DNA from: an uncultured Ruminococcus sp.
GTDB lineage: Bacteria; Bacillota; Clostridia; Oscillospirales; Acutalibacteraceae
Direction: 5' to 3'
Assembly (NCBI GenBank): GCA_944415425.1
Contig: CALYBP010000005.1
Location: 487-64,486 of the forward strand
DNA: 64,000 nt
Each line of letters begins with the position of its first letter. Positions within the stretch are counted from its first letter, which is position 1. Under the pieces are notes generated by a model. It was not told the DNA's origin. It worked only from the letters and a program-made list of their open reading frames with translations, and did not search any database. Below, piece by piece: positions 25,576-38,600 of the stretch. The position numbers were made by a program, and so were the translations under genes.

Positions 25576-26388
25576 ATGGGCTTTTTGAACTGGATTGCCG
25601 ATGAATCAGACGGCAAAAAGGTACCTTTAAAAAGGCGCAAAAGACTTATAATTTTTGTGGCCCTTATTACTCTGCTCTCAATGACAACATCAACCGTTGC
25701 GTGGTTTTCAATAAACACATTCGCAGGGGTTGATAATCTGGATGTAAAAATCAGTATGAGCGCCCAGCTCAAGGTTGCAATGGAGGATTACGGAACCGAT
25801 CTCGAAAGATACGGCAAGGTTATAACAAACGAAATGATAGACGGATACCTCGCTGATTTTGACACAAGTCTTGAAGAAACGGTTTTGGATCCGGTCACCA
25901 CAACGGACGGCATACGCTTTACCAATCAGCGAGGCGCTGAGAGAGAGCCGAATAACCGTTCATACCTTGAGTTTGAGTGCTATTTTATCGCAACCGAGGA
26001 GATGTGGGTTCATCTTACGACCGAGAGTACCGAGCAAGGTGAGGATGACGGAACAAAGGTCACCACAACTTCGACCGGACCTCAGGCGGATGTAGTGAAT
26101 TGTACGAGAGTCGATTTTTCAACCGAACAGGACGGCACGGCAATTTATGAGCCTAACAAGGCTGCCCCCGTAAACGGTCAGGTTACGTTTGATCTTCCGT
26201 CCGGTGAAATGGAATACTCTGACAGCACAAGAATTTTTCATCTTGAACAGCTCACCCCGACCAAAGTCACGATAAGACTTTGGGTTGACGGAGAGGACCC
26301 GCAGTGCGACGACGATGTGCAGGATGCGCAGCTCGGCGTTCAGCTCGGCTTTATCGGATGTGACGAAAACAACATTCCGATTTCATAA
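25576..26388 (+). CDS. TasA/CalY-like fibre subunit 1 with SipW-type signal peptide
   Basis: KRRKR-hydrophobic-TTSTVAWF signal; shared motifs DPVTTTDG, YLEFECYF and C-terminal LWVDGEDPQC. Confidence 0.7.
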   Translation: MGFLNWIADESDGKKVPLKRRKRLIIFVALITLLSMTTSTVAWFSINTFAGVDNLDVKISMSAQLKVAMEDYGTDLERYGKVITNEMIDGYLADFDTSLEETVLDPVTTTDGIRFTNQRGAEREPNNRSYLEFECYFIATEEMWVHLTTESTEQGEDDGTKVTTTSTGPQADVVNCTRVDFSTEQDGTAIYEPNKAAPVNGQVTFDLPSGEMEYSDSTRIFHLEQLTPTKVTIRLWVDGEDPQCDDDVQDAQLGVQLGFIGCDENNIPIS

Positions 26389-26459
26389 ATAATTCGATTA
26401 CAAAGTTATGAGCGGATCGCAGGATTTTGCTTTGAGCTTTCAAAATAAAAACTCACGGA

Positions 26460-27275
26460 GTGATTAAATTGTTCGGAAAAAACAAATCTAAAATTGAACA
26501 GCCTGTTACTCCCGAGGAGTTAAGTCGATTAAACGATAAAAAGATATCAGACTCCGAAATTGAGCATCTTCATGTAAAAAATGACTCAATAGAGATAGTA
26601 AAGTACAAAAAACGCCGAAAGATACTCAGTATCATTTTAAGCGTCTGTCTTATCGTTTTACTTATTTTGTTTTTGGTGTCAATGCTTGTTACCCAGTGGG
26701 GCGACCTCATCATAAAAGTTGATTCACCCGCCGCTAAGAAGGGCATCGTGCTCAGCGAAGACCCCGAGTTCGAGACGATGGGCGTTTCGCTTTCGGCAGA
26801 GCAGGCTGATGATGTAACAAATATTACATATTCGTGGCTGCCCGTTGACCTTGACACAAGCGAAAACGGAGCTCATAACGGCGATAATTATGTTGCCTAC
26901 ACATTTTACTGCAAAAACAACGGTCAGGAAACGCTTGACTATGACGCTGTGCTTGAGATTACAGGCGCCGCAAAGTCAGCCGACGAAGCCGTAAGAGTTA
27001 TGGTTTATAAGAACGGCGAGCCGTCAATTTACGGCAAGGGCAAGTATGATGACAGAAACACCGCTGAAACCGACTGTACAAAATTTAATACCAATACCGA
27101 GGTAATGTCAACGGCGACAGAAGATTTTGAGGTTGACGATGTTGACAAGTACACTATCGTTATATGGATAGAGGGCAATGATCCCGAATGTATTGACGAT
27201 ATAAGAAACGGTCATGTCAGAATGAGAATGCTTTTCAGCGTTCGTGACGACGAAACAACCGCACCCGCAAATTAA
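26460..27275 (+). CDS. Fibre-subunit paralog with N-terminal transmembrane anchor (no AWF motif)
   Basis: KKRRK followed by a 25-aa TM ending TQWG; YVAYTFYCKN; C-terminal IWIEGNDPEC shared with the neighbours. Confidence 0.7.
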   Translation: MIKLFGKNKSKIEQPVTPEELSRLNDKKISDSEIEHLHVKNDSIEIVKYKKRRKILSIILSVCLIVLLILFLVSMLVTQWGDLIIKVDSPAAKKGIVLSEDPEFETMGVSLSAEQADDVTNITYSWLPVDLDTSENGAHNGDNYVAYTFYCKNNGQETLDYDAVLEITGAAKSADEAVRVMVYKNGEPSIYGKGKYDDRNTAETDCTKFNTNTEVMSTATEDFEVDDVDKYTIVIWIEGNDPECIDDIRNGHVRMRMLFSVRDDETTAPAN

Positions 27276-27366
27276 TAACGGTATTAAGTGCATTTGCACT
27301 GATATAAAAAACATCCCTATGGTGTTTTAGGGACAAAACAAAAATCATTTTAGGAGGAATTTCTCA

Positions 27367-28116
27367 ATGAAAACAACATCAAGAAAGAGATTATTAGTCT
27401 CTTCCGTAGCAATGCTCCTCGTAGCAATGCTCGCACTCGGAACAGCTACATACGCATGGTTCACATCAAGTACAACTGCAACGGCTAACGGTATCAATGT
27501 AAAGACTGTAAAGTCATCAAAGCTTGAGATTTCAAGCGCTACTTCCGAATGGGGTACACTTATTAATTACGGTGTACAGAATAAGGTTCTTCTTCCTGTT
27601 TCTACCGGCAACAGCACAGCTTGGTTTACAGCTGAAGGTCAGTCTTATGACGACGGTACTTTAAAGTCAGGCACAGTTGCATCTCAGTCAGATCTCAACA
27701 GCTATGTTGTTAAGAATCAGCTTAATGTTCACAATGCCGGTGAAGCTGCTGTTGAAAATGTTACAATTAGTTTCAGCGTTCCTAATGACTATCTCCGTGT
27801 AGCTCTTGTTCCTGCTGACGCAAAGGGTGAAAATCAGCCTAACTCAACAAGTGCAACATTTACAGATTGCGTTTATGCAGCAGATACAGCTTCATACACA
27901 GGTCTTACTTCAACTGAAGGTACAGGCGTAGAGATCACTCCAAAGAACAAATATGAAGTACCTGTTGGCACGCTTAACAAGGATGAAGTTAAATACTACA
28001 ATCTCTATGTATGGTTTGAAGGTCAGGATCCTGATTGTAAGGATGCTAAGGCTGGCGCAGTAGTGCCTGACATCGAGTTTACCGTAACAGGTGACACAGT
28101 AAGCGAGATTGGCTGA
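27367..28116 (+). CDS. TasA/CalY-like fibre subunit, likely the major pilin
   Basis: RKR...LALGTATYAWFTS signal; VWFEGQDPDC; AGGAGG RBS; visibly biased codon use (GGT, GCT, AAC, TAC). Confidence 0.78.
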   Translation: MKTTSRKRLLVSSVAMLLVAMLALGTATYAWFTSSTTATANGINVKTVKSSKLEISSATSEWGTLINYGVQNKVLLPVSTGNSTAWFTAEGQSYDDGTLKSGTVASQSDLNSYVVKNQLNVHNAGEAAVENVTISFSVPNDYLRVALVPADAKGENQPNSTSATFTDCVYAADTASYTGLTSTEGTGVEITPKNKYEVPVGTLNKDEVKYYNLYVWFEGQDPDCKDAKAGAVVPDIEFTVTGDTVSEIG

Positions 28117-28170
28117 TTATAACAAATCACAATTTTAATGCAAAAATCTTAAATTAGTTGGAGACCCCTT

Positions 28171-28911
28171 ATGAGCAAAGTGTTAAAAAGAATAATAAAC
28201 ATAATAATTGACATTATTGTTGTGTTGATTCTGATAGTGTCGGTTTTGGTAGTGACGCTGTCGTTAACATCAAAGTCATCGGGGGTCCCCAATATTTTCG
28301 GAATTGCGCCCTTAAGCGTGCAGACAGGGTCAATGGAAGATACCCTAAATGAGGGAGATCTTATCTTTTCAAAAGTGACCGATTACACCGAAAAATATCA
28401 AAAAGGGGATATAGTTACATTCCCCATTGAAGTTAACGGCGAAACGGTCTTAAACACGCACAGGATAGTGGAAGTAATAAATGACGACAATATTATCTAC
28501 TACCGAACACAGGGCGACAATTCAAAGACTAATCCTGAGCCGGACGATGAGCTTCAGACATCCTCATCGATCGTGGCTAAGTACACGAACTTTAAAATTG
28601 CGGGATTGGGTAATGTATTGAGCTTTATAAGGACGCAGCTCGGATTTTTCCTCTGTGTGCTGCTTCCGATGATCATTTTCTTTGTGTACGAAGCAATAAG
28701 AGTTGTAATAAACATAATTGCTTACAGCAAGGAAAAGGCTGTTGAGGAGGCTAAGGCCGCCGTAGGAGGTACACAGCTTACCGAAGAACAGAAGAAGCAG
28801 GCTATTGAAGAATATCTTGCGTCAATCGGGGAGAGCACAACAGCTCAGACGGAAAATGAGCCAGCGGTACAAACACCTGCCGAAGGCGATAATTCCGAGA
28901 GTGAAAGCTAA
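28171..28911 (+). CDS. sipW: Signal peptidase I, SipW/archaeal (ER) type
   Basis: SVQTGSMEDTL (catalytic Ser), NTHRIV (His), TQGDNS (Asp); N- and C-terminal TM. Confidence 0.88.
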   Translation: MSKVLKRIINIIIDIIVVLILIVSVLVVTLSLTSKSSGVPNIFGIAPLSVQTGSMEDTLNEGDLIFSKVTDYTEKYQKGDIVTFPIEVNGETVLNTHRIVEVINDDNIIYYRTQGDNSKTNPEPDDELQTSSSIVAKYTNFKIAGLGNVLSFIRTQLGFFLCVLLPMIIFFVYEAIRVVINIIAYSKEKAVEEAKAAVGGTQLTEEQKKQAIEEYLASIGESTTAQTENEPAVQTPAEGDNSESES

Positions 28912-28966
28912 AGCTTACTTATAATAAATTTGTCCCTATACACATAGGTGTATTATAGTAACCGAG

Positions 28967-28999
28967 TATTTCTTTTCCGTTTTGTGCGGAAAAGAAATA
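28967..28999 (+). other. Intergenic stem-loop inside the fibre operon
   Basis: TATTTCTTTTCCGT-TTTGT-GCGGAAAAGAAATA. A second hairpin AGCGGAA-N8-TTCCGCT lies near 29027-29048. Confidence 0.6.
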
Positions 29000-29105
29000 T
29001 TGTGTTACCGAATACGGGATGTTTTAAGCGGAATAAATTGTTTCCGCTGTGTGTTTTTTGACGCAGAATGCGTCGAGGTAGATTTTTTTAAGGAGACGAA
29101 GTACC

Positions 29106-30644
29106 GTGGATACAGTATTTGGATTTCTGTTTGAATTTCTCGGTCAGTTTTTTGGCTCACTGTGGTCAATTATAACAGGCTTGTTTACAGGAATAGGAGA
29201 GGCTTTTAATTTTCCCGCCTATGTCAACATAATAAACGGCTATACCACTGAGCTCGGAGGACTTGCCTGGGGTATTGCGATTCTTGCAATAGTTCTTCTT
29301 GCAGCGGTGCTTGCGCTTATTGTATGGCTTATTATCGTCGCCGTAAAAAAGTTTATCCGTTCTCATCGCAGAAGAAAAGATACGGAATCTCTTGTTAAAG
29401 AGGTTCAGGCGCTCAATAAGGAGGTTATGAGACTTAACCTTGAAAAGGATAAAATTCTTTCGATGAAAGTTTCTCAGATAGGTCTTAATCCCAACGAGAT
29501 TGCCGAGCTTACCGGCGAAGAAATCGAATCTCTCAACAACGGCGAAGAAGATCCCGAGGCTAACGGCTCGCGCTTCTACAAGCTTACCGAGATCGACGAT
29601 CTCTGGTCGGAGTATGTTCCGCCTATCTATGACAATACAATTACATTGCCTGAGTTCTGCGACCGCTTCCGCTTGTTTGCCTGCTCACAGCTCGGTCTGT
29701 ATTACGACATCAAGATAATTCGTCTTTTCGTTGCGGCTTTTGCTTCAACACGACTGATTATTCTTCAAGGTATTTCAGGTACAGGTAAAACTTCACTTCC
29801 GTATGCGTTCGGAAAATTTGTTAATAATCCCGCGGTTATTGCTTCAGTACAGCCGTCTTGGCGTGACCGAAGCGAGCTGTTCGGATATTTCAATGAATTT
29901 ACAAAGAAATACAACGAAACCGAGCTTCTGCGCGCTATGTACGAGGCTTCTTACAACGAGAATGTTTACACGGTAATCCTCGATGAAATGAACATCGCAC
30001 GTGTTGAGTACTACTTTGCGGAGATGCTCTCAATCCTTGAAATGCCGTCGAGGGATGAATGGGTTGTTGATATTGTTCCAAACTCTTGGTCAAACGATCC
30101 TAAGCATATCATAAACGGTCAGATCAAGATTCCGCCGAATATGTGGTATGTCGGAACAGCAAACAACGATGACTCTACTTTTGCAATCACAGATAAGGTA
30201 TATGACCGTGCAATGCCTATTGAAATCAACACAAAGGGCGTTGCGTTTGAGGCTCCGCTTACAGACTCGATCTACATAAACTACAAACATTTTGAAGATC
30301 TCTTAAACGAGGCAAAGGCAAATAATGTTGTGACAAACGAGAGCATCAAGAAAATACTGTTGCTTGACGACTATGTTATTGAACATTTCCGCATAGCTTT
30401 CGGTAACCGTATCGTAAAACAGCTTCGTGATTTTGTTCCGGCGTATGTCGGATGCGGCGGCACAGAGATTGACGGTCTTGACTATGTACTTGCAAGAAAG
30501 GTGTTCAGAAAGTTTGAATCTCTTAACCTTTCGTATATCAGAGATGAAATAGACGGTCTTTGTGCTTATATTGACGAGCTTTTCGGCGAAGAAAATATGA
30601 ATGAATGCAAGGATTATCTGCGTATGCTCAAAAAGCTTGTATAA
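29106..30644 (+). CDS. McrB-family AAA+ NTPase with N-terminal membrane segments and short coiled coil
   Basis: Walker A QGISGTGKT; SVQPSW; Walker B ILDEMN; McrB-type GTANNDDST (NxxD); DKVYDRA. Residues 1-80 are hydrophobic. Confidence 0.8.
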   Translation: MDTVFGFLFEFLGQFFGSLWSIITGLFTGIGEAFNFPAYVNIINGYTTELGGLAWGIAILAIVLLAAVLALIVWLIIVAVKKFIRSHRRRKDTESLVKEVQALNKEVMRLNLEKDKILSMKVSQIGLNPNEIAELTGEEIESLNNGEEDPEANGSRFYKLTEIDDLWSEYVPPIYDNTITLPEFCDRFRLFACSQLGLYYDIKIIRLFVAAFASTRLIILQGISGTGKTSLPYAFGKFVNNPAVIASVQPSWRDRSELFGYFNEFTKKYNETELLRAMYEASYNENVYTVILDEMNIARVEYYFAEMLSILEMPSRDEWVVDIVPNSWSNDPKHIINGQIKIPPNMWYVGTANNDDSTFAITDKVYDRAMPIEINTKGVAFEAPLTDSIYINYKHFEDLLNEAKANNVVTNESIKKILLLDDYVIEHFRIAFGNRIVKQLRDFVPAYVGCGGTEIDGLDYVLARKVFRKFESLNLSYIRDEIDGLCAYIDELFGEENMNECKDYLRMLKKLV

Positions 30645-30655
30645 TTAGGCAAAAT

Positions 30656-30678
30656 AAGGGCGAACTTTGTTCGCCCTT
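30656..30678 (+). other. Intergenic stem-loop
   Basis: Perfect AAGGGCGAAC-TTT-GTTCGCCCTT between the AAA and DUF2357 genes. Confidence 0.65.
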
Positions 30679-30719
30679 TAGTCAGTATTTGATTTGTATC
30701 GGTGAAGGAGTAGCAGCTT

Positions 30720-32894
30720 ATGGCTGATTTCGGAAAATATTACAGAGCTTATATGTATATGCAGGAGCTTCTGAAAAGTGACTTTACATACAATTACATA
30801 AATGAAAGCTTAAAAGACGCTGATAAGGGCGAGGATACCCTCGAGGGCAAGACTAACGAAAAAGTCATTGATATGGACTGGGTTGAGGCCATTGAGGAGA
30901 CGCTTCCGTATATACAAAAAGCCATTGATGAGCAGAGGCGTTTTATCAAACAGGTTGAAAATGTTGTGCGCATCGAGCTTGCAAAAAAGGTAGGTCCGGA
31001 TTCGGTAAAGCATCTTTCTCAGCATACCAACTTCATCGCAAAGGTAGAGGACGGTATGGTTACTCCGAACAAGATTTTGACTGTTGAGCGCGAGGAGAGC
31101 TTTGCGATTTACGAAAACCGTGTGCTTATGACATTGATACGCAAGGCGCTTCGTTTTGTTGACGATAAATATTCAAAAATGAAGGATGTGCCCAACGACA
31201 GCTATAATAATATTCAAGTAAAAAGACAGCTTCAGTTTCACGAGAAAAAAGTTGATTTTATTATAAACTATGTCAATGAATCTCACGAAACACTTGCCGA
31301 TGACTTAGATGTTCTTGATGTTTCACAGCTTTCGGACTTTGACAGAATAAGAAGAATAAGAACGACGCTCAACGAGTTTTTAAACACTCAGCTAATGCGT
31401 GAGATCGCAAAAGAGCCTGAGGTTCATCCGCCTATAACGCAGACTAACCTGCTTAAAAAGAATCCCAACTTTAAAAAAGCCATGGATTTATGGAATTTCC
31501 TCGACAGCTACAAGCGCAAGGGCTTTGAGATAGTCGGAGAGACATATCAGGGCAAAATGACGGAAGATGTACAGCAGGACATATATTTTGCTATGGGATT
31601 TGAGCATTTTATAATGTCAATAGCCACTAATAAGGGATTGCGCAATATTCTTCAGCAAAAGTATGAAGAAGAAAACGAAAGGATAGCGGAGGAACAGGCA
31701 AAGCCGGAAAAAACCCGTGAGTCTGTTATGAAAGCGCAGATAGACGCTGTAAGGAAAGAAGAAATGGAAATCCGTCTGCGTGAAATCCGCGAAAGAGAGA
31801 AGAAAATTCTTGATCTCAATAACGAGATAAAGAATCTAAAGGTAACTCTCGAACAGAAGGAACAGCAGATTATGACCCTGAAGGGACAGGTTTCGGCGCT
31901 TCAGGATCAGATAGAGGAACTAAAGAGAGAGCTGAAAGAAACAAAGCTCAAGCTTCTTGAGGCAGAAAACGAAATAAAAGCGCTCAAAGAAGAAAATCAA
32001 GCCCTCAAGGCTGAAATCGAAGAGCTTAACAAAACTATTGATTCCTTAAACAAGGAAATAAAAAGGCTCAATGAGCAGATAATCGTCCTTAACGACCGTA
32101 TTCAGGTGCTTATGCAGGAAAATGCCAGGATGCAGTCTAAGATAAAAGAGCAGGAAGAGGTAATTGAGGAGCAAAACGCAAAAATTGAGCAGCTCGAAGC
32201 ACAGGTAGCAGAGCAGCTTGCAAAAATTGCAGCTCTTAATGATAATCTTGCAAAATGTGAATCGGAAATTGAGGAAAACCATAAAAAGATTACTTATCTT
32301 ACCGATAAGACCGAATCGCTTACAAATATCCTTAATCTTGAGAGAAAGACGAATCAGGAGCGCATTGCGAAGATGAATGCCGATTTCGAGGAAAAAACAA
32401 GGGCGGCAAAAGAAGCGCATGACGCCGAGGTGAAATCTCTCAAACAGGATATTGACGAAGCAAATACGGCTCACGCAAAGCATATAGCGGAACTTAATGA
32501 GGAATTTGCCGACAAAGCAAATTTGGCAGAGCAAAGGCGCATAAGAGAGCTTGCGTTAAAGCAGACGGAGCATGAAAAGCAAATTGAGCAGATAAAGCAG
32601 GCTAATACAAATGCTGCAGCGGCCGTTGACGCAAAGCACGCTTCTGAAATCAGAAAGGTGCAAAAGTCAGTTGACAAGCGTGTAGACGCAGCCAAAAAAG
32701 CGGCCGAAAAGCAGTATATGTCGATGATTAAGCAGCTAAAGGCACAGCATGCTAAGGAGCTTGCCGAAGCAAAGCGCAAGGCAAGGGAAGAAGTAAGGCT
32801 TGCTAAGCAAAAATCAAAAAAAGAAATCAGGCTCGTAAAAGAAAAGGCAAGAAAAAATATGTTTACGCAGGAAGAGCTTGACGAGATAAATTAA
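30720..32894 (+). CDS. DUF2357 (McrC-like N-terminal domain) protein fused to a long coiled coil
   Basis: SFAIYENRVLMTL and PPITQTNLLKKNPNFKKAMDLW resemble DUF2357. The C-terminal ~400 aa are continuous heptad-like E/K/Q/A/L sequence with no PD-(D/E)XK motif visible. Confidence 0.7.
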   Translation: MADFGKYYRAYMYMQELLKSDFTYNYINESLKDADKGEDTLEGKTNEKVIDMDWVEAIEETLPYIQKAIDEQRRFIKQVENVVRIELAKKVGPDSVKHLSQHTNFIAKVEDGMVTPNKILTVEREESFAIYENRVLMTLIRKALRFVDDKYSKMKDVPNDSYNNIQVKRQLQFHEKKVDFIINYVNESHETLADDLDVLDVSQLSDFDRIRRIRTTLNEFLNTQLMREIAKEPEVHPPITQTNLLKKNPNFKKAMDLWNFLDSYKRKGFEIVGETYQGKMTEDVQQDIYFAMGFEHFIMSIATNKGLRNILQQKYEEENERIAEEQAKPEKTRESVMKAQIDAVRKEEMEIRLREIREREKKILDLNNEIKNLKVTLEQKEQQIMTLKGQVSALQDQIEELKRELKETKLKLLEAENEIKALKEENQALKAEIEELNKTIDSLNKEIKRLNEQIIVLNDRIQVLMQENARMQSKIKEQEEVIEEQNAKIEQLEAQVAEQLAKIAALNDNLAKCESEIEENHKKITYLTDKTESLTNILNLERKTNQERIAKMNADFEEKTRAAKEAHDAEVKSLKQDIDEANTAHAKHIAELNEEFADKANLAEQRRIRELALKQTEHEKQIEQIKQANTNAAAAVDAKHASEIRKVQKSVDKRVDAAKKAAEKQYMSMIKQLKAQHAKELAEAKRKAREEVRLAKQKSKKEIRLVKEKARKNMFTQEELDEIN

Positions 32895-32918
32895 TTTTGT
32901 TTTCAGAAAGGCAAACTG

Positions 32919-33872
32919 ATGGAAAATAACACAGCGCCCAGCAGACACACGGGCAGAATGATTACGAAAAATTTAATAATTCTGCTTGTGCTTGCCGTTG
33001 TGGCTTTCTTGGCGATTTGGGCGTGGTTTACAAGCAGACAGACGGTGCAGGCAGGGGGAATAAACATTGAATGTAATGCCCCGGACGGGGTTGAAATTGC
33101 TGTTGTTGCTCCCGGCGAAACGCCTGAGGAGGCTGATTATAAGGACGGCGGAATAATAATTAAAGATCAGCAGTTTCTTGAAGATTTTTCGCTGTCAGAG
33201 GTAACATCAGACGGCATTAATTTTTACAAGCCTGCGCTTGTTCAGTCAAACGGAACAGCCAGCCCGGATCTTGACGCCGACTGGGATGTTGCCGTTGCAA
33301 ATGAAAATTATTTGAGTTTTGACCTTTATATCCGTTCAAAATCAAGTCAGATAGTTTCGCTTTCGACAAAGTCAAAATTTTCCCCGCTTTCGTCTGTGCT
33401 TACAGGCGCAAACTGCGGAAACAAAAGTGAATACGGTGACTTTTCAAAGGACTGCATTGTCGGGGCTTCAAGATTTTCCGTTGTTAATAGTGACAGCACC
33501 GCAAGGGAGCTGCTTTGGATTCCTCGTCCCGATCTGTATTTCAGCTCGGAGGGTACTCCGTCTGTTACTGAGAATGTAACGGCGGATCAGTACGACGGAA
33601 TAACATATAATCATTACTATTACGAGGTTAACGGTTCACAGAAAACCCTGAAAACCCTGGACAGCAGCCTTGTTACAACATCGGCGCTTATCGGTTCGGA
33701 GTATGTTCTCCCCAAAAAATCCGAAATTGCACGGCTCAGTATCAGAGGCGACGACGGTTACTACACAAACCATGTTACGTGCAATATGTGGATTGAGGGT
33801 GAGGATACCGAGGACAGACTTGCTCTTGTAAAGGGTCAGTTCAAAATTGTTCTTGATTTAACTATAAAATAA
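32919..33872 (+). CDS. TasA/CalY-like fibre subunit with SipW-type signal
   Basis: VAFLAIWAWFTS; SEVTSDGINFYKP; YLSFDLYIRS; MWIEGEDTE. Confidence 0.72.
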   Translation: MENNTAPSRHTGRMITKNLIILLVLAVVAFLAIWAWFTSRQTVQAGGINIECNAPDGVEIAVVAPGETPEEADYKDGGIIIKDQQFLEDFSLSEVTSDGINFYKPALVQSNGTASPDLDADWDVAVANENYLSFDLYIRSKSSQIVSLSTKSKFSPLSSVLTGANCGNKSEYGDFSKDCIVGASRFSVVNSDSTARELLWIPRPDLYFSSEGTPSVTENVTADQYDGITYNHYYYEVNGSQKTLKTLDSSLVTTSALIGSEYVLPKKSEIARLSIRGDDGYYTNHVTCNMWIEGEDTEDRLALVKGQFKIVLDLTIK

Positions 33873-33913
33873 AGTATAATTAAATTGAGATTGTACGGAA
33901 AGGAGATGAGAGC

Positions 33914-35671
33914 GTGAAAATTGAAAATCCTTTTGGTTTTCTTACGGAAGCTCTTTCGCACAGAAGAATAGGCGACAAAAAAAAGCTTGCGGCTTCATAT
34001 CTCTCAATCTTCCTTGCTTTTTTACTTTTGGTTACTTCAACTCTGGCGTGGTTTACCGTAAATGACACCGCAGATGTATCTTCCGATACTTTTACGATGG
34101 AATCGGTTTCAGGCCTAAGAGTTAATGACGGTGAGGATTTGAAAAATCACATTTCCATTGAAAATCTTATGCTTGCCGAAGCTTCAAGCGTTGACGGAAG
34201 AAATATGTACTTCCCGACAACGGGCACATTTACGGGCAACACTTCGGAAATGGTGTTCAGAGAGGGCAATGCCGGAGATAAAAACGAAAATTACTGCTAT
34301 GAGGAATTTAATTTAAAAGGTGACTCTGGCGTTACATATGTATATATAAAAAGTTACTCTGTTACTGTTGACCGCAAGCAGGGGGATCAGACGGTATCGG
34401 AGGTTTTTGACGGTTCTACAAAAATCACCTACGACAGCAGCGGTGTTCCGATTGCCCAGGAAAAGCACGCAGAATGTCCCGTGAGAATTTCTTTTATCGG
34501 CGACAGCTCGCAAACTCCTATTGTGCTTGACCCGTCTGCTCTTATCAACAATTACGCAACCGACTACAATGCTGTTGCCACGATTGATGAAAACGGAAAG
34601 GCATCAACATTGAAGTCTGAGGCTTCTTCGTTTTCCGACTACTATTATGCAACAGGCAAGCCCATATTCACGTTGGTCGGTTCTCAGCCTCTGACGGTTG
34701 CTATGGTTGTATGGCTTGAGGGCACAAGCGAAGCCTGCGACCAGTACGCAGGGCAGAATATTTCAATAGATATTGAGCTTGAGAGTAACTGGACAAATAT
34801 GGATTATATCACATTTGTCGATGATACCCTGCCCGATAATGACGGCGGAACATCGCATTGGGTAAACAGCGCAAATGACTGCTTTGTTGTTATGAGTTAT
34901 AAGGATATTAACGCCGACGGAGCTACAAAGTCGGTAGTTATGAAGCAGGAGGATACATACGAGTGGATGGCTCCTATCCCCGATAATATAATAACCGACA
35001 TATCTTTTTACAGATACAGCCTCAACGAGGAAATCATTTATAACGCTTGGCACACTTTTGAGGGTGTGGACGATCAGCTCAACAAGACATCGAGTAACTG
35101 GGCTTTGCAGGAGGTCGGTCCCGATAAGCTTCAGGAATACCGTACAAGCGACGGTACTTCAAGCGGTGAGATAGAGAGGGTTTACACAGCCCGAAGGGGT
35201 AACGGCTACGGTATGGTAGCCGAGGATGATGAAAATTTGCAGAGAAAACGACTTTCTCCGTGTATCGGATATTGGGGAACACCGCAAGGTTCTCAAGAAA
35301 CTACTGTTGCTACAACATCGCCGGACGGTGAAACAACTCCGACAGGTTCCGGAACTCCGGATGGTTGGGTTACAATAACTGTTTCTCTCGGACAGATTAG
35401 ACCTTGGGTACAGGGAAATCTCGAAAATGACGGTTATGAGCTGTATGTTGAGTTCAGCGACGGTAACCTTGTAAAAATGGAAAGAAAAAATATCGACTAT
35501 TATGAAAACAGTGCGGTGACGGCAAAGCTTAACACTACGCTGAAGTGCTTTACTCTTAAAAGTGCGTCGGATACAAAGTATCTGTCGCTTGAGTCCCCGG
35601 AATTGATTACAAGCAACAGAAATATGTCGTTCCAGATGACAAACGATGATACTGTTATAAGAACAGGATAA
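33914..35671 (+). CDS. Fibre subunit with C-terminal accessory domains (minor pilin/adhesin)
   Basis: LVTSTLAWFT; EASSVDGRNMYFP; VWLEGTSEAC; then two further Trp-rich beta domains separated by a Thr/Pro linker. Confidence 0.7.
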   Translation: MKIENPFGFLTEALSHRRIGDKKKLAASYLSIFLAFLLLVTSTLAWFTVNDTADVSSDTFTMESVSGLRVNDGEDLKNHISIENLMLAEASSVDGRNMYFPTTGTFTGNTSEMVFREGNAGDKNENYCYEEFNLKGDSGVTYVYIKSYSVTVDRKQGDQTVSEVFDGSTKITYDSSGVPIAQEKHAECPVRISFIGDSSQTPIVLDPSALINNYATDYNAVATIDENGKASTLKSEASSFSDYYYATGKPIFTLVGSQPLTVAMVVWLEGTSEACDQYAGQNISIDIELESNWTNMDYITFVDDTLPDNDGGTSHWVNSANDCFVVMSYKDINADGATKSVVMKQEDTYEWMAPIPDNIITDISFYRYSLNEEIIYNAWHTFEGVDDQLNKTSSNWALQEVGPDKLQEYRTSDGTSSGEIERVYTARRGNGYGMVAEDDENLQRKRLSPCIGYWGTPQGSQETTVATTSPDGETTPTGSGTPDGWVTITVSLGQIRPWVQGNLENDGYELYVEFSDGNLVKMERKNIDYYENSAVTAKLNTTLKCFTLKSASDTKYLSLESPELITSNRNMSFQMTNDDTVIRTG

Positions 35672-35686
35672 AAAGGAGGTGTCACG

Positions 35687-38600
35687 GTGAGAAATAAATT
35701 ATTGCAGATAAGGCAGGCCGTAAAAAAGAATACTAAGTCCCGCTATGGCTTTTTGCTGTCCGCCGTGGCGCTTATTGAGGTAATTATGATATTGGTCGTT
35801 TCTACATTTGCATGGGTTGAAACGATTTCATCAATCAAAATCAGCAACACGCTGGGAAATATCAAGACATATGTTTACACAAACGCCGAGGTGGGTACCG
35901 GCACAGGCTATTCGGGACAGCCTATTAACCTTTCCGATTACTTTTTAGCGTCGGGAAATATCCACCTTTCTTCTGCGTCAAGCGCAAACGGCGAGGATTT
36001 TTATTTCCCTCAGGTAGCTAACGCAAATGCCTCAAGCAATCTGTACAGAAAAGGCTCAATAAACGATAAGAACACAAATTATATCAGCTTTTCATTCAGG
36101 GTTCAGGCAAAGGGCACGAGCGCAAACTTTTATTTTGACAAGGTGCCTACCTTTAAGATTGGGGACACGGTTGTTGATGACAATACCGTAAGGCTTGCCG
36201 TTTCTTCATACGACGAGGAAACCAACACGAAGGACGCAACCAGGGTCTACTCATATAACGCGTTAGACAGCGAGTATGTGGTGGGCGATGTAGACGGTAG
36301 TTCTGTTGCGACAACGAAAATATACGCTTTTGAGGATTATGACAATAAAAACGACAGCGAAGAAAACATCCTGTTTTCTGTCGATAAAGACAAGTCAAAG
36401 ATAGTCACTCTTACGCTTTGGCTTCAGGATCCCGAAAAAACCTCAGATTTTGCGGGAAAATCCGTAACGGCGGATGATTTTAAGATTGTAACGAGTGTAA
36501 AATATACTACTATCAATTTTATAGACAGAACGTCTGCCCACAACAGCGCGGATGCAACAAAACCGACATGGAACTGGGTAGGCAACGACAGCGCAAATCT
36601 TTGGATTTGTACGGCTTCGGGAGAAGTGTTTAAAATGAATAAGGTTGAAAACAGCGATCCCGATTCCGCAGATGCGCCTAAATGGACGGTGACTGTCCCC
36701 ACAGACAGTCTGGGTGACACAAACGGCGATTTTTATTTTTACAGAACCGATGATGTTGTGACGAGTCCTCTGCCGAATAGCTATTGGAATTTCTGGAAAA
36801 CAAAGCTTTCGCAAGCGGGTACGGCGACCGTGCCGACATATACCGCATACGGCAATACAAAGCCGGGTTCAAGCGAGGGCTACGGAACATGGGACGATGT
36901 GGCCGAAATCAAGGTGCTCGGCGATGATGCTGAGGATATTTTGAAAACACCTGCCGACGGGGAAAATCCGCAGGCGCTTACTTTGCAGACAGACAACGGA
37001 ACATCCGTGCCGATGAACTGGAACAGGAATTTCTGGAGAGCCTACATACCCAACGATTCTGATTCAAAAAATTTGAAACTCACATTTTCAAACGGTTCGC
37101 AAAATTACAGCATAGACGCGGTAAACCGTGATTTAACCGAGAATGCTTCAACATTCCGTGTAACATCGGCTACCACGGGTTACTGGGAGCCGCCTGCAAT
37201 TATTAAGGCGGTAGTACCGCAGGAGTATGCCTCTATGGGTAAGGTAGAGGTCAGCGGCGGACCCGTAGGTGCGACAACCGTTAAGGTAACAAAGGGAACG
37301 ACCGTTAAGTTTACGGCAGCACCTGTATCGGACGGATACGTTTTTGAGGGGTGGTATTCTGACCCCGATTGCACTAAGCTTGTACAGAAAACAAGCGAAT
37401 TCAGTTTTACACCGCCCGAAAAGGATAAAACATACACATACTACGCAAAATTTCAGTATAACGTGCGCCTTACCGCAAAAACCGACGGGGTAGAGGGTGA
37501 CTCTGCGGGCGGTCAGGTTCAGATTAACGACGACGGTACACCCGGCGCTAAGGTAAGCCTGCCTGTTTTGAAGGGCGGCTCGGTAAAGCTTATAGCCCTG
37601 CCTAATACGGAAGATTACGAGTTTATGGGCTGGTATGATACTAACAATGAGTTGGTTTATGACAGTACACAAACCACCGTGAGTATAACAAATTTACAAA
37701 AACCAATAAACCTTTTTGCGGTATATAATGTTAAAAAATTTGTGCTTGAGGCTTACGCTTCAACGGATGCGATAAAGGAAAACGACAAGGGTGGTACTGT
37801 AAAATTTGATTCGCAGACATCCTCAGGCGCATACGCAAGGGTTAAGGTTGCTTTCACGGGTGAGGCAACGTTCATGGCTTTTGTAAACGATATTGACGGC
37901 TATGAATTTGCCGGTTGGTACAGCGACGAGGCATGCACAAACCTTGTTACAAAGGAACTTACATACAAGGCGGATAAAAACACGAAGTACAAGACGATGT
38001 ATGCGAAATTCGTGTTGAAAAAGTATGACGCACAGGCTGATGTCATCACAAATTTTGACGAAAACAATAAGTCGGGCGGTACTGTTCAGATTTCTGCCGA
38101 CGGAGTTACCACTCCGGCCGGTTCAAGCGCCTCAACAAAGGTTACTCACGGAACATCAGCAAAGTTTACTGCCAACGCAAACGACGGATACAGCTTTGCA
38201 GGCTGGTACAGCAGTGCAAGCGGCGGCGAGCTTTTAAGTGAGAACGAGGTTTATACCGCTGACGGCGTTGCAGGCGATATAAAGGTGTATGCAATGTTTA
38301 AACAAGTGTTCACCGTTTCGCTTGCCTCAAAAACCGATGGGGAAATAAGCGGAGTCGGCGGCTCTGTTAAGGCCGGTTCAGGTGCTGAGGGCGCAATGTC
38401 TTCTGTAAGCGTTAACTACGGCGACAGCGTTATTGTTACCGCAACTCCAGCGGACATAAGTTACAGCTTTATAAAGTGGACTGATGCTGAGGGCACATCT
38501 TTCGGTGCGGAGCAGGAAATTACTCTTTCAAATGTGAAAAACGACATTTCGCTTTATGCCGAATTTGTTAAAAAGACATTTACAATAGAGGCCTATGCTG

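What the first reader, a model, noticed from the sequence alone, without database searches (positions are those of the whole stretch)
29106..32894. McrBC-derived AAA+ module embedded in the middle of a pilus operon
Seen: between sipW and the minor pilins sit an McrB-family NTPase (GISGTGKT, DEMN, NxxD) and a DUF2357 protein, same strand, with short spacers and no mobile-element marks. Known: McrB/DUF2357-McrC pairs are normally type IV restriction enzymes in which McrC stimulates a hexameric McrB GTPase. Inference: this pair has been repurposed as a membrane-bound motor or scaffold for fibre assembly, export, retraction or localisation. The alternative is an envelope-linked defence module guarding a phage-receptor pilus. 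I know no description of such a coupling.
Basis: partly seen in the sequence, partly recalled or inferred. Interest (0 to 1): 0.9.

Follow-up and report, generated by a model that had tools for sequence, protein, structure and literature searches.

The report
McrBC-derived module in SipW fibre locus
A membrane-anchored GTPase and its partner protein, descended from a DNA-cutting restriction enzyme but without the nuclease, sit beside the signal peptidase SipW in a surface-fibre gene cluster of a gut Ruminococcus. The pairing is real and widely conserved, but it was already named "CoCoPALM" in 2024 and its function is still untested.

Summary
Window 29106-30644 encodes a 512-aa protein made of a membrane anchor, a leucine zipper and a McrB-type AAA+ domain. 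Window 30720-32894 encodes a 724-aa protein with a McrC N-terminal (DUF2357) domain and a roughly 400-aa coiled coil, and no nuclease. Both lie on the + strand between sipW and genes for proteins with SipW-type signal peptides.

Two corrections. The signature motif is the NxD variant (GTAN-x-D-[DE]-ST across the family), not NxxD. The "pilins" are TasA-like fibre subunits.

The coupling is not a chance insertion. In 76 of 79 species-level genomes with a close homologue, a sipW homologue lies within 3.5 kb, in two different gene orders. The GTPase is the best-conserved gene of the locus.

Bell et al. [quoted passage not shown]

My best reading (about 0.55) is a nuclease-less GTPase platform on the cytoplasmic face of the membrane that works with SipW in fibre biogenesis. 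Defence remains a minority rival. The locus is a new member of a known, uncharacterised kind.

The parts
25576..26388 (+). 270-aa protein with a SipW-type signal ('VAWFS') and a C-terminal W-x-[DE]-G-x-D-x-x-C motif. Paralogue of the fibre subunits.
26460..27275 (+). 271-aa protein with one transmembrane segment and no AWF motif, but the same C-terminal 'WIEGNDPEC' motif. Probably an anchored member of the same family.
   Evidence: sequence read directly; no Pfam or NCBIfam match
27367..28116 (+). 249-aa TasA-like fibre subunit immediately upstream of sipW. It has a SipW-dependent signal peptide ('TYAWFTSS').
   Evidence: TIGR04088 at 19.1 bits against a cut-off of 19. AF2 pLDDT 80.8. Top PDB fold hit is the TasA fibre 8aur_A, E 4.2e-4, probability 1.0. 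The 'P S B C' position is conserved.
28171..28911 (+). SipW #1, an archaeal/ER-type signal peptidase I. It has the GSME Ser and THR His motifs and an acidic tail of about 60 aa after the last transmembrane segment.
   Evidence: NF046067 at 1.1e-32; TIGR02228 at 79.1 bits, above the 51.85 cut-off
29106..30644 (+). Membrane-anchored NxD-type McrB-family AAA+ GTPase homologue ('B', 512 aa).
- Residues 1-85: amphipathic helix plus transmembrane segment.
- Residues 90-126: conserved leucine zipper.
- Residues 190-400: AAA+ core.
- Walker A at 29769-29792, Walker B at 29982-29993, NxD(D) at 30162-30173.
   Evidence: PADLOC PDC-M26A at 8.9e-37, AAA domain only
30656..30678 (+). GC-rich 10-bp stem-loop directly after the B stop codon, with no clean U-tract after it. 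It may be an attenuator or a stabiliser of the transcript between B and C.
   Evidence: Non-homologous hairpins sit at the same position in 17 of 67 related loci.
30720..32894 (+). McrC-derived partner ('C', 724 aa).
- DUF2357-like core, about residues 45-265 (30852-31514).
- Coiled coil of about 400 aa, residues 319-724 (31674-32891).
- No PD-(D/E)xK nuclease.
32919..33872 (+). 317-aa protein with an AWF signal ('WAWFTS')
33914..35671 (+). 585-aa protein with an AWF signal ('LAWFTV')
35687..40069 (+). 1460-aa protein with an AWF-type signal ('FAWVE'), Listeria-Bacteroides (Flg_new) repeats and two CBM26 starch-binding modules. Putative adhesive subunit.
   Evidence: Flg_new 5.4e-45; CBM26 2.8e-11
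40143..41381 (+). 412-aa protein with an AWF signal ('FSWFN'). A terminator-like hairpin follows at 41406-41429.
41505..42221 (+). SipW #2
   Evidence: NF046067 at 9.1e-28; TIGR02228 at 86.9 bits

Best explanation
This is a CoCoPALM-type derivative of McrBC, as named by Bell et al. 2024. It is not a restriction enzyme.

What the sequence shows:
- B is a McrB-family AAA+ NTPase of the NxD clade with all catalytic residues intact.
- Its DNA-binding domain has been replaced by an N-terminal amphipathic helix, a transmembrane segment with a positively charged inner flank, and a strongly conserved juxtamembrane leucine zipper. The NTPase ring therefore hangs on the cytoplasmic face of the membrane.
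- C keeps only the McrC N-terminal (DUF2357) domain. The nuclease is replaced by a roughly 400-aa coiled coil.
- The pair is co-inherited with SipW and TasA-like secreted fibre subunits.

Inferred by homology to E. coli McrBC:
- B forms a hexamer.
- The finger domain of C plugs into the ring and stimulates GTP hydrolysis.
- The coiled coil of C takes over the dimerising or bridging role of the lost nuclease.

Inferred from gene context: the complex works with SipW at the membrane as a nucleotide-driven assembly or regulatory platform for fibre biogenesis. It may organise, gate or localise signal-peptide cleavage and the donor-strand polymerisation of the TasA-like subunits. One of those subunits carries starch-binding modules.
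For: Family identity:
- Walker A and B, N353 and D355, and R299, E301, R368 and R435 are invariant in 56 diverse homologues.
- McrB is the only PDB family hit by the profile.
- 65 of 67 C orthologues match DUF2357, and McrC is the top fold hit.

Loss of restriction function:
- No D...ExK motif is conserved.
- The short C orthologues (362-394 aa) end soon after the DUF2357 core.
- Residues 206-340 of the model are mostly helical.
- No nuclease gene lies in the locus.

Linkage to SipW:
- A sipW homologue lies within 3.5 kb in 76 of 79 species-level loci. Two of the three exceptions are short contigs.
- Adjacency is kept in two different gene orders: 'P-S-B-C-P' in Clostridia and 'B-C-S-P' in Bacilli.
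- The reverse look-up from homologues of the TasA-like subunit finds S-B-C in all 5 loci shown.
- In the more distant relatives with several transmembrane segments, 48 of 61 loci with enough flanking sequence also have sipW nearby.

Conservation:
- B is the most conserved gene, with mean pairwise identity 59% against 34% for C and 30% for SipW.
- B and SipW distances co-vary (Mantel r 0.79, p 0.001).

No sign of mobility or a defence island:
- Flanks are housekeeping genes.
- The membrane-anchored type is absent from plasmids, phages and viral contigs.

Other support:
- Fragments of B and C occur in gut metatranscriptome contigs at depths similar to their neighbours.
- The literature has the same architecture and the same inference (PMC11090510).
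- PcdA of S. aureus is a precedent for a McrB homologue with a non-defence role (PMC10602043).
Against: - There are no functional data of any kind.
- Well-studied SipW/TasA systems (B. subtilis, C. perfringens BsaA) need no cytoplasmic NTPase, so no step obviously requires one.
- 13 relatives with several transmembrane segments lack a nearby sipW and sit among housekeeping genes. The pair may therefore have a SipW-independent core activity.
- The closest soluble relatives match a PADLOC phage-defence candidate, PDC-M26A at 8.9e-37, and are plasmid-borne.
- Co-variation of B and SipW distances could reflect shared vertical descent alone.
- Structural similarity to McrC is weak in TM-score (0.28).
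- The RNA evidence is low-depth contigs, and DNA carry-over is not excluded.
Confidence: 0.55

Rival explanations
1. Envelope-linked defence or abortive-infection module. The B-C complex senses phage attack at the fibre, a likely receptor, or perturbation of the membrane. It then acts through its membrane anchor, for example by depolarising the membrane or blocking fibre display, rather than through a nuclease.
For: - The ancestry is a type IV restriction system.
- The AAA domain matches PADLOC candidate PDC-M26A at 8.9e-37.
- Soluble relatives are common on plasmids, including conjugative ones.
- Bell et al. treat the sister CoCoNuT clade as defence.
- Transmembrane effectors are common in defence systems (my own knowledge).
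Against: - There is no nuclease or other recognisable effector.
- The match to PDC-M26A covers the AAA domain only, and C matches no PADLOC model even at E 10.
- The flanks are housekeeping genes.
- The membrane-anchored type is virtually absent from plasmids and phages.
- B is far more conserved than is usual for defence genes and is kept next to sipW across Clostridia and Bacilli.
Confidence: 0.2
2. A general membrane or cell-division-associated NTPase module, analogous to PcdA, whose primary partner is not SipW. The FtsB/FtsL-like anchor and zipper and the long coiled coil would place it at septa or poles. The fibre genes would merely be co-regulated or positioned by it.
For: - The juxtamembrane zipper is highly conserved.
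- There is a weak FtsL_Actino match, E 8.7e-4, and Bell et al. call the domain FtsB-like.
- Standalone B-C pairs lie among housekeeping genes without sipW.
- PcdA is a precedent.
Against: - FtsB/FtsL homology was not confirmed. There is no Pfam DivIC hit in 56 members, and the PDB profile search gives only generic coiled coils.
- For the window's own subfamily sipW adjacency is near-universal and survives gene-order rearrangement. Co-regulation alone is unlikely to explain that.
Confidence: 0.15
3. Chance insertion of a decaying McrBC cassette into a fibre operon, with no current function.
For: The nuclease has been lost. The window's own Pfam scores are below threshold.
Against: - Both ORFs are intact with good ribosome-binding sites.
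- The catalytic residues are invariant.
- At least 595 species genomes encode relatives, and 76 of 79 of the closest have sipW nearby.
- B averages 59% identity across classes of Bacillota.
Confidence: 0.02

Closest known systems
[quoted passage not shown]
   Same: - NxD-motif McrB GTPase fused to an N-terminal transmembrane-plus-coiled-coil module.
- A McrC homologue with a coiled coil.
- Adjacency to a signal-peptidase-family gene.
All are seen here.
   Different: Nothing in the architecture differs.

The paper gives only a two-sentence description and defers the analysis. Added here:
- The partner peptidase is SipW-type and the substrates are TasA-like.
- There are two gene orders.
- The coiled coil of C is absent in the Bacilli branch.
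- FtsB homology of the anchor could not be reproduced with my tools.
E. coli McrBC type IV restriction enzyme (PDB 6hz4, 6ut6)
   Same: - AAA+ core with Walker A and B, a sensor Asn and Arg residues.
- A partner protein with the McrC N-terminal domain.
- The same gene order, B then C.

   Different: - No N-terminal DNA-binding domain; a membrane anchor replaces it.
- NxD instead of NxxD.
- No PD-(D/E)xK nuclease; a coiled coil of about 400 aa replaces it.
It therefore cannot restrict DNA in the McrBC manner.
CoCoNuT systems / PADLOC candidate PDC-M26
   Same: The same NxD clade of McrB GTPases. Match to PDC-M26A at 8.9e-37. Both use coiled coils.
   Different: - CoCoNuT GTPases are soluble with long N-terminal coiled coils (700-870 aa) and are linked to HEPN or other nucleases.
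- Here there is a membrane anchor, no nuclease genes, and no PADLOC match for C.
PcdA of Staphylococcus aureus (PMC10602043)
   Same: A McrB-family AAA+ NTPase co-opted from restriction to a non-defence, envelope-related role.
   Different: - PcdA has N-terminal EVE domains.
- It acts alone with FtsZ and DivIVA, with no McrC-like partner.
- It has no link to SipW.
TapA-SipW-TasA (B. subtilis), BsaA-SipW (C. perfringens) and archaeal bundling pili
   Same: - An ER/archaeal-type signal peptidase next to secreted jelly-roll subunits with 'A-W/A-F'-type signals.
- The top fold hit is the TasA fibre, and the archaeal bundling pilus 7ueg is also on the list.
   Different: - Those systems have no cytoplasmic NTPase.
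- This locus has seven paralogous subunit-like genes, two sipW copies and the B-C pair.

Membership tests
McrB-family AAA+ GTPase (NxD clade) | Walker A GxxGxGK[ST] and Walker B hhhDE | tested here: met
   GISGTGKT at residues 222-229 and D293-E294. These are invariant in 56 homologues.
McrB-family AAA+ GTPase (NxD clade) | Signature Nx(x)D motif with a sensor-1 Asn; in the NxD clade, NxD usually followed by D or E | tested here: met
   GTAN-x-D-[DE]-ST in about 130 of 150 cluster representatives. N353 and D355 are invariant. The canonical NxxD reading is not supported at family level.
McrB-family AAA+ GTPase (NxD clade) | Significant sequence similarity to characterised McrB | tested here: met
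   Profile against the PDB: McrB is the only family hit, at 8.3e-6. The single sequence scores 6.5e-4. It is far below the NCBIfam McrB equivalog cut-off, 19.5 bits against 637, so it is a homologue and not an orthologue.
McrB-family AAA+ GTPase (NxD clade) | Hexamer formation and GTP-specific hydrolysis stimulated by McrC | not testable with these tools
   Needs biochemistry or a multimer prediction.
McrC / DUF2357 | McrC N-terminal (DUF2357) domain | tested here: met
   The window protein scores 18.5 bits against a cut-off of 23.3. 65 of 67 orthologues match, best 2.9e-15. The top PDB fold hit is McrC 6hz4_M, probability 0.99 but TM 0.28.
McrC / DUF2357 | C-terminal PD-(D/E)xK endonuclease | tested here: not met
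   - No D...ExK is conserved among 67-72 orthologues.
- The region after the core is helical in the model.
- Short orthologues lack the room for it.
Type IV restriction enzyme (functional McrBC) | DNA-binding specificity domain on McrB | tested here: not met
   Residues 1-135 are an amphipathic helix, a transmembrane segment and a zipper. No DNA-binding family matches.
CoCoPALM (Bell et al. 2024) | NxD McrB GTPase fused to an FtsB-like transmembrane-plus-coiled-coil domain | tested here: inconclusive
   The transmembrane segment plus a conserved zipper is present. Specific FtsB homology is not reproduced:
- only FtsL_Actino at E 8.7e-4;
- no DivIC Pfam hit;
- only generic coiled coils in the PDB search.
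CoCoPALM (Bell et al. 2024) | Genomic association with a signal-peptidase-family gene | tested here: met
   sipW lies 194 nt upstream in the window. In 76 of 79 related loci it is within 3.5 kb.
CoCoPALM (Bell et al. 2024) | Coiled coils on both the McrB and McrC homologues ('usually') | tested here: met
   - B residues 90-118.
- C residues 346-670 by heptad scan, with 1 Pro and 1 Gly in 406 aa, and matches to SMC coiled-coil regions.
- The coiled coil is absent from C in the Bacilli branch.
CoCoNuT | Associated nuclease(s): HEPN, PD-(D/E)xK or others in tandem | tested here: not met
   No nuclease domain occurs in any gene of the locus.
PADLOC PDC-M26 | All component proteins of the candidate system present | tested here: not met
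   Only the A model matches, over the AAA domain. C has no PADLOC match even at E 10.
SipW / TasA-type fibre system | ER/archaeal-type signal peptidase, cognate TIGR04088-type signal peptides and a TasA-like subunit fold | tested here: met
   - TIGR02228 scores above its cut-off for both SipW copies.
- TIGR04088 scores 19.1 against 19 for the 249-aa protein.
- The TasA fibre 8aur is the top fold hit at E 4.2e-4, though TM is only 0.36-0.38.
- Fibre formation itself is not testable here.

The most novel reading that the evidence does not exclude
The B-C pair is an obligatory, nucleotide-driven component of a new kind of Gram-positive fibre machinery. A restriction-enzyme-derived GTPase ring on the inner face of the membrane would gate or power SipW cleavage and the ordered polymerisation, anchoring or placement of TasA-like subunits. 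These include a starch-binding adhesin in gut Ruminococcus. It would be the first cytoplasmic NTPase known to be required for a Sec/SipW-dependent donor-strand fibre.
Probability: 0.4. Interest if true: 0.8.

Novelty: new member of a known kind. Interest (0 to 1): 0.5.

Why it matters
TasA-type fibres are thought to assemble outside the cell without any energy source. If the best reading is correct, a conserved cytoplasmic GTPase wired to their signal peptidase would change that picture for hundreds of gut species of Clostridia and Bacilli.

It would also add a second well-defined case, after PcdA, of a restriction-enzyme motor being turned to cell-envelope work.

The window's fibre carries CBM26 starch-binding modules. 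The module may therefore bear on how Ruminococcus related to resistant-starch degraders attaches to its substrate.

As a discovery its value is limited, because the association has been published and named. What remains open, and directly testable, is the function.

Tried and rejected
- Pfam, NCBIfam and PADLOC on the single sequences gave only sub-threshold AAA_5, McrB and DUF2357 hits. I had to move to family-level tests.
- A PDB sequence search with the C profile found nothing.
I rebuilt it from homologous-protein hits.
- The FtsB/FtsL homology of the anchor was not reproducible.
- The supplementary files of Bell et al. held as text contain no CoCoPALM details.
- Literature searches for PDC-M26, SipW+McrB, McrB+TasA and SipW+Ruminococcus gave nothing relevant beyond Bell et al. 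and the general TasA literature.
- Metatranscriptome contigs are too short and too shallow to prove co-transcription across the S-B, B-C and C-P junctions.
- PHROGs gave no meaningful hits.
- Chance insertion or a decaying cassette is rejected by conservation and synteny.
- A classical type IV or sortase pilus is rejected. The subunits have SipW-type signals and a TasA-like fold.
- CoCoNuT membership is rejected because there are no nucleases.

Full report
**1. What is there**

The + strand of window 25.5-42.3 kb carries one gene cluster:
- Three genes for small secreted or anchored proteins at 25576-26388, 26460-27275 and 27367-28116.
- sipW #1 at 28171-28911.
- The two genes of the finding, which I call B (29106-30644, 512 aa) and C (30720-32894, 724 aa).
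- Four more genes for proteins with SipW-type signals, at 32919-41381.
- A terminator-like hairpin at 41406-41429.
- sipW #2 at 41505-42221.

Both peptidases pass the NCBIfam archaeal/ER-type signal peptidase model and match the SipW model at 1e-32 and 1e-27. The spacers around B and C are 194, 75 and 24 nt. Both genes have good ribosome-binding sites.

The flanks are leuCD, a MATE transporter, citrate synthase and an acyl-CoA dehydratase activase. There are no tRNAs, Rfam hits, integrases or compositional breaks. Close homologues are annotated as Ruminococcus sp. MAGs. Matching runs are mostly chicken-gut samples.

**2. Protein B**

Translation confirms GISGTGKT, DEMN and NNDD at 29769-29792, 29982-29993 and 30162-30173.

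On its own the protein resembles McrB only weakly:
- PDB McrB 6hz4 at 6.5e-4.
- NCBIfam McrB at 3.4e-4.
- AAA_5 at 18.7 bits against a cut-off of 22.

At family level the relationship is firmer. The family is large, with 8,350 clusters at 50% identity at E<=1e-3 and 776 at <=1e-30. A profile of 56 diverse members hits McrB and nothing else in the PDB, at 8.3e-6. AAA_5 matches 41 of 56 members.

Invariant positions are the Walker A Gly and Lys residues, D293, N296, R299, E301, T351, N353, D355, S357, T358, R368 and R435. The signature reads GTAN-x-D-[DE]-ST. That is the NxD variant followed by an acidic residue, exactly as Bell et al. describe for their NxD clade.

The N-terminal 135 residues replace the McrB DNA-binding domain. 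In order they contain:
- a conserved amphipathic or hydrophobic helix;
- a transmembrane segment of about 30 residues, followed by K/R-rich residues, so the AAA+ domain is cytoplasmic by the positive-inside rule;
- a strikingly conserved zipper, L-x-E-V-x-x-L-N-x-E-V-x-x-L-x-x-E-K-D-x-I-L-A-M-K-V-S-Q-x-G-L.

Among the 150 best cluster representatives there are three architectures:
- one or two transmembrane segments, as here;
- three to five transmembrane segments;
- soluble proteins with a long N-terminal region of 400-500 aa. These are the ones that resemble the PADLOC candidate PDC-M26A, which B matches at 8.9e-37 over the AAA domain only.

**3. Protein C**

The N-terminal roughly 320 residues give a sub-threshold DUF2357 hit (18.5 bits against 23.3). 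Of the orthologues taken from related loci, 65 of 67 match DUF2357, best 2.9e-15.

An AF2 model of residues 1-340 has pLDDT 82.7 and shows long beta-hairpins flanked by helices. Its best PDB match is E. coli McrC (6hz4_M, probability 0.99, E 0.017). The TM-score is only 0.28, so the fold evidence supports the assignment but does not carry it alone.

The conserved core spans residues 50-260: W54, E59, H98, L99, P116, Y131-E132-N133-R134, R209, P238, T242-N243, K247 and W258.

No nuclease is present:
- No D...ExK motif is conserved.
- The region after the core is helical.
- The orthologues in Bacilli are only 362-394 aa long.

In the window protein residues 319-724 are a coiled coil. They contain 1 Pro and 1 Gly in 406 residues, heptad segments at 346-531, 541-571 and 631-670, and matches to SMC and Rad50 coiled-coil regions.

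**4. The neighbours are TasA-like, not classical pilins**

The 249-aa protein upstream of sipW passes TIGR04088, the SipW-dependent signal peptide model. Its AF2 model (pLDDT 80.8) has the TasA fibre subunit 8aur as its best PDB match (E 4.2e-4, probability 1.0). The archaeal bundling pilus 7ueg is also on the list. TM-scores are modest at 0.36-0.38.

All seven non-enzyme proteins of the cluster share a C-terminal W-x-[DE]-G-x-D-x-x-C motif. The 1460-aa member also has Flg_new repeats and two CBM26 starch-binding modules.

**5. Is the coupling real?**

A scan of one genome per species found at least 595 genomes with a relative of B. I called ORFs in the 80 best loci, which are 51-91% identical in B. 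They come from Oscillospiraceae and Ruminococcus, Acutalibacteraceae, Christensenellales, Lachnospiraceae, and Bacilli such as Erysipelotrichaceae and RF39-like lineages. I labelled homologues of B, C and SipW and the proteins with AWF signals.

- 76 of 79 loci with a called B gene have a sipW homologue within 3.5 kb. Two of the three exceptions are contigs shorter than 4 kb.
- There are two gene orders, 'P-S-B-C-P...' and 'B-C-S-P'. Adjacency has therefore survived rearrangement.
- Looking up homologues of the TasA-like subunit instead finds the same S-B-C arrangement in all five loci shown.
- B is the best-conserved gene, with mean pairwise identity 59% against 34% for the C core and 30% for SipW. 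B and SipW distances co-vary (Mantel r 0.79, p 0.001). Shared vertical descent would also produce this.
- In metagenome loci of the relatives with several transmembrane segments, 48 have sipW nearby. Thirteen with enough flanking sequence do not, and these sit among housekeeping genes such as gatCAB, secA/prfB and tsf/pyrH.
- The membrane-anchored type is essentially absent from plasmids, where hits are 26-39% identical over the AAA domain only. It is also essentially absent from phage genomes (2 records) and from viral contigs (3 of 2.9 million, at about 30% identity).

The association stands.

**6. Prior description**

- the NxD GTPase is fused to an FtsB-like transmembrane-plus-coiled-coil domain;
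- it usually has coiled coils on both the McrB and McrC homologues.

They name these CoCoPALM and defer the analysis to a future paper. No follow-up is in the searchable library. The window's locus fits every stated feature except one. I could not confirm specific FtsB homology of the anchor. The finding is therefore a rediscovery of a named but uncharacterised system.

**7. Mechanism**

Shown:
- a catalytically intact McrB-type NTPase anchored to the membrane;
- a partner that keeps only the McrB-engaging domain of McrC;
- no nuclease and no DNA-binding domain;
- obligate neighbourhood with SipW and TasA-like substrates.

Inferred from McrBC structures and biochemistry (6hz4, 6ut6; my knowledge of that literature):
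- B forms a hexamer.
- The C finger inserts into the ring and stimulates GTP hydrolysis.
- The coiled coil of C substitutes for the dimerising nuclease.

Inferred from context: the complex acts with SipW in fibre biogenesis, through gating, ordering, anchoring or localisation.

Two small observations point the same way, but they are only leads:
- Strong, non-homologous hairpins follow the B stop codon in 17 of 67 loci, including 30656-30678 here. This is compatible with making less C than B.
- The SipW cytoplasmic tail is longer where C has its coiled coil, median 67 aa against 19 aa (Spearman 0.53, not corrected for phylogeny).

I put about 0.55 on this reading. I put 0.2 on an envelope-linked defence role, 0.15 on a more general membrane or division role in which SipW is not the primary partner, and about 0.02 on a non-functional insertion.

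**8. Verdict**

- Observation: confirmed, with two corrections (NxD motif; TasA-like subunits).
- Interpretation: partly supported. The claim of novelty is wrong.
- Novelty class: new member of a known, computationally defined kind.
- Interest: moderate. The biology is unresolved and testable, but the association itself is published.

Noticed in passing
window 35687-40069; L161-L163: The 1460-aa fibre-locus protein has Flg_new (Listeria-Bacteroides) repeats and two CBM26 starch-binding modules. Related loci also end in a CBM26 protein, and L162 has an alpha-amylase+CBM26 gene about 3 kb upstream. This suggests a starch-adhesive TasA-like fibre in Ruminococcus.
   Followed up: partly
window 30656-30678: A 10-bp GC-rich stem-loop sits directly after the B stop codon. 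Non-homologous strong hairpins occupy the same spot in 17 of 67 related loci, while the others have a B-C spacing of 0-30 nt. It may lower expression of C relative to B.
   Followed up: partly
window 28171-28911 and related loci L001-L080: SipW carries a longer cytoplasmic tail after its last transmembrane segment where the adjacent C protein has the long coiled coil, median 67 aa against 19 aa (Spearman 0.53, p 2e-4, n=45). The test is not corrected for phylogeny.
   Followed up: partly
window 25576-41381: All seven non-enzyme proteins of the cluster share a C-terminal W-[IVLF]-[ED]-G-x-D-x-x-C-like motif. This includes the transmembrane-only protein at 26460-27275, which lacks the AWF signal. 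They look like one paralogous family.
   Followed up: no
L081-L085, L125, L126, L134, L144, L146: Relatives of B with 3-5 transmembrane segments, paired with a DUF2357 protein, occur as standalone two-gene modules among housekeeping genes with no sipW nearby. In L125 the upstream gene encodes a secreted protein with collagen-like GDK/GDT repeats.
   Followed up: partly
window 29027-29078: Two weak terminator-like hairpins lie in the 194-nt sipW-B spacer, so B and C may have their own transcriptional control. The metatranscriptome contigs were too fragmentary to decide.
   Followed up: partly
L169 (Polaromonas plasmid pPNAP01): A soluble 813-aa relative of B is followed by an overlapping 631-aa hypothetical protein on a conjugative IncP plasmid. 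This shows that the non-anchored branch of the family is mobile.
   Followed up: no
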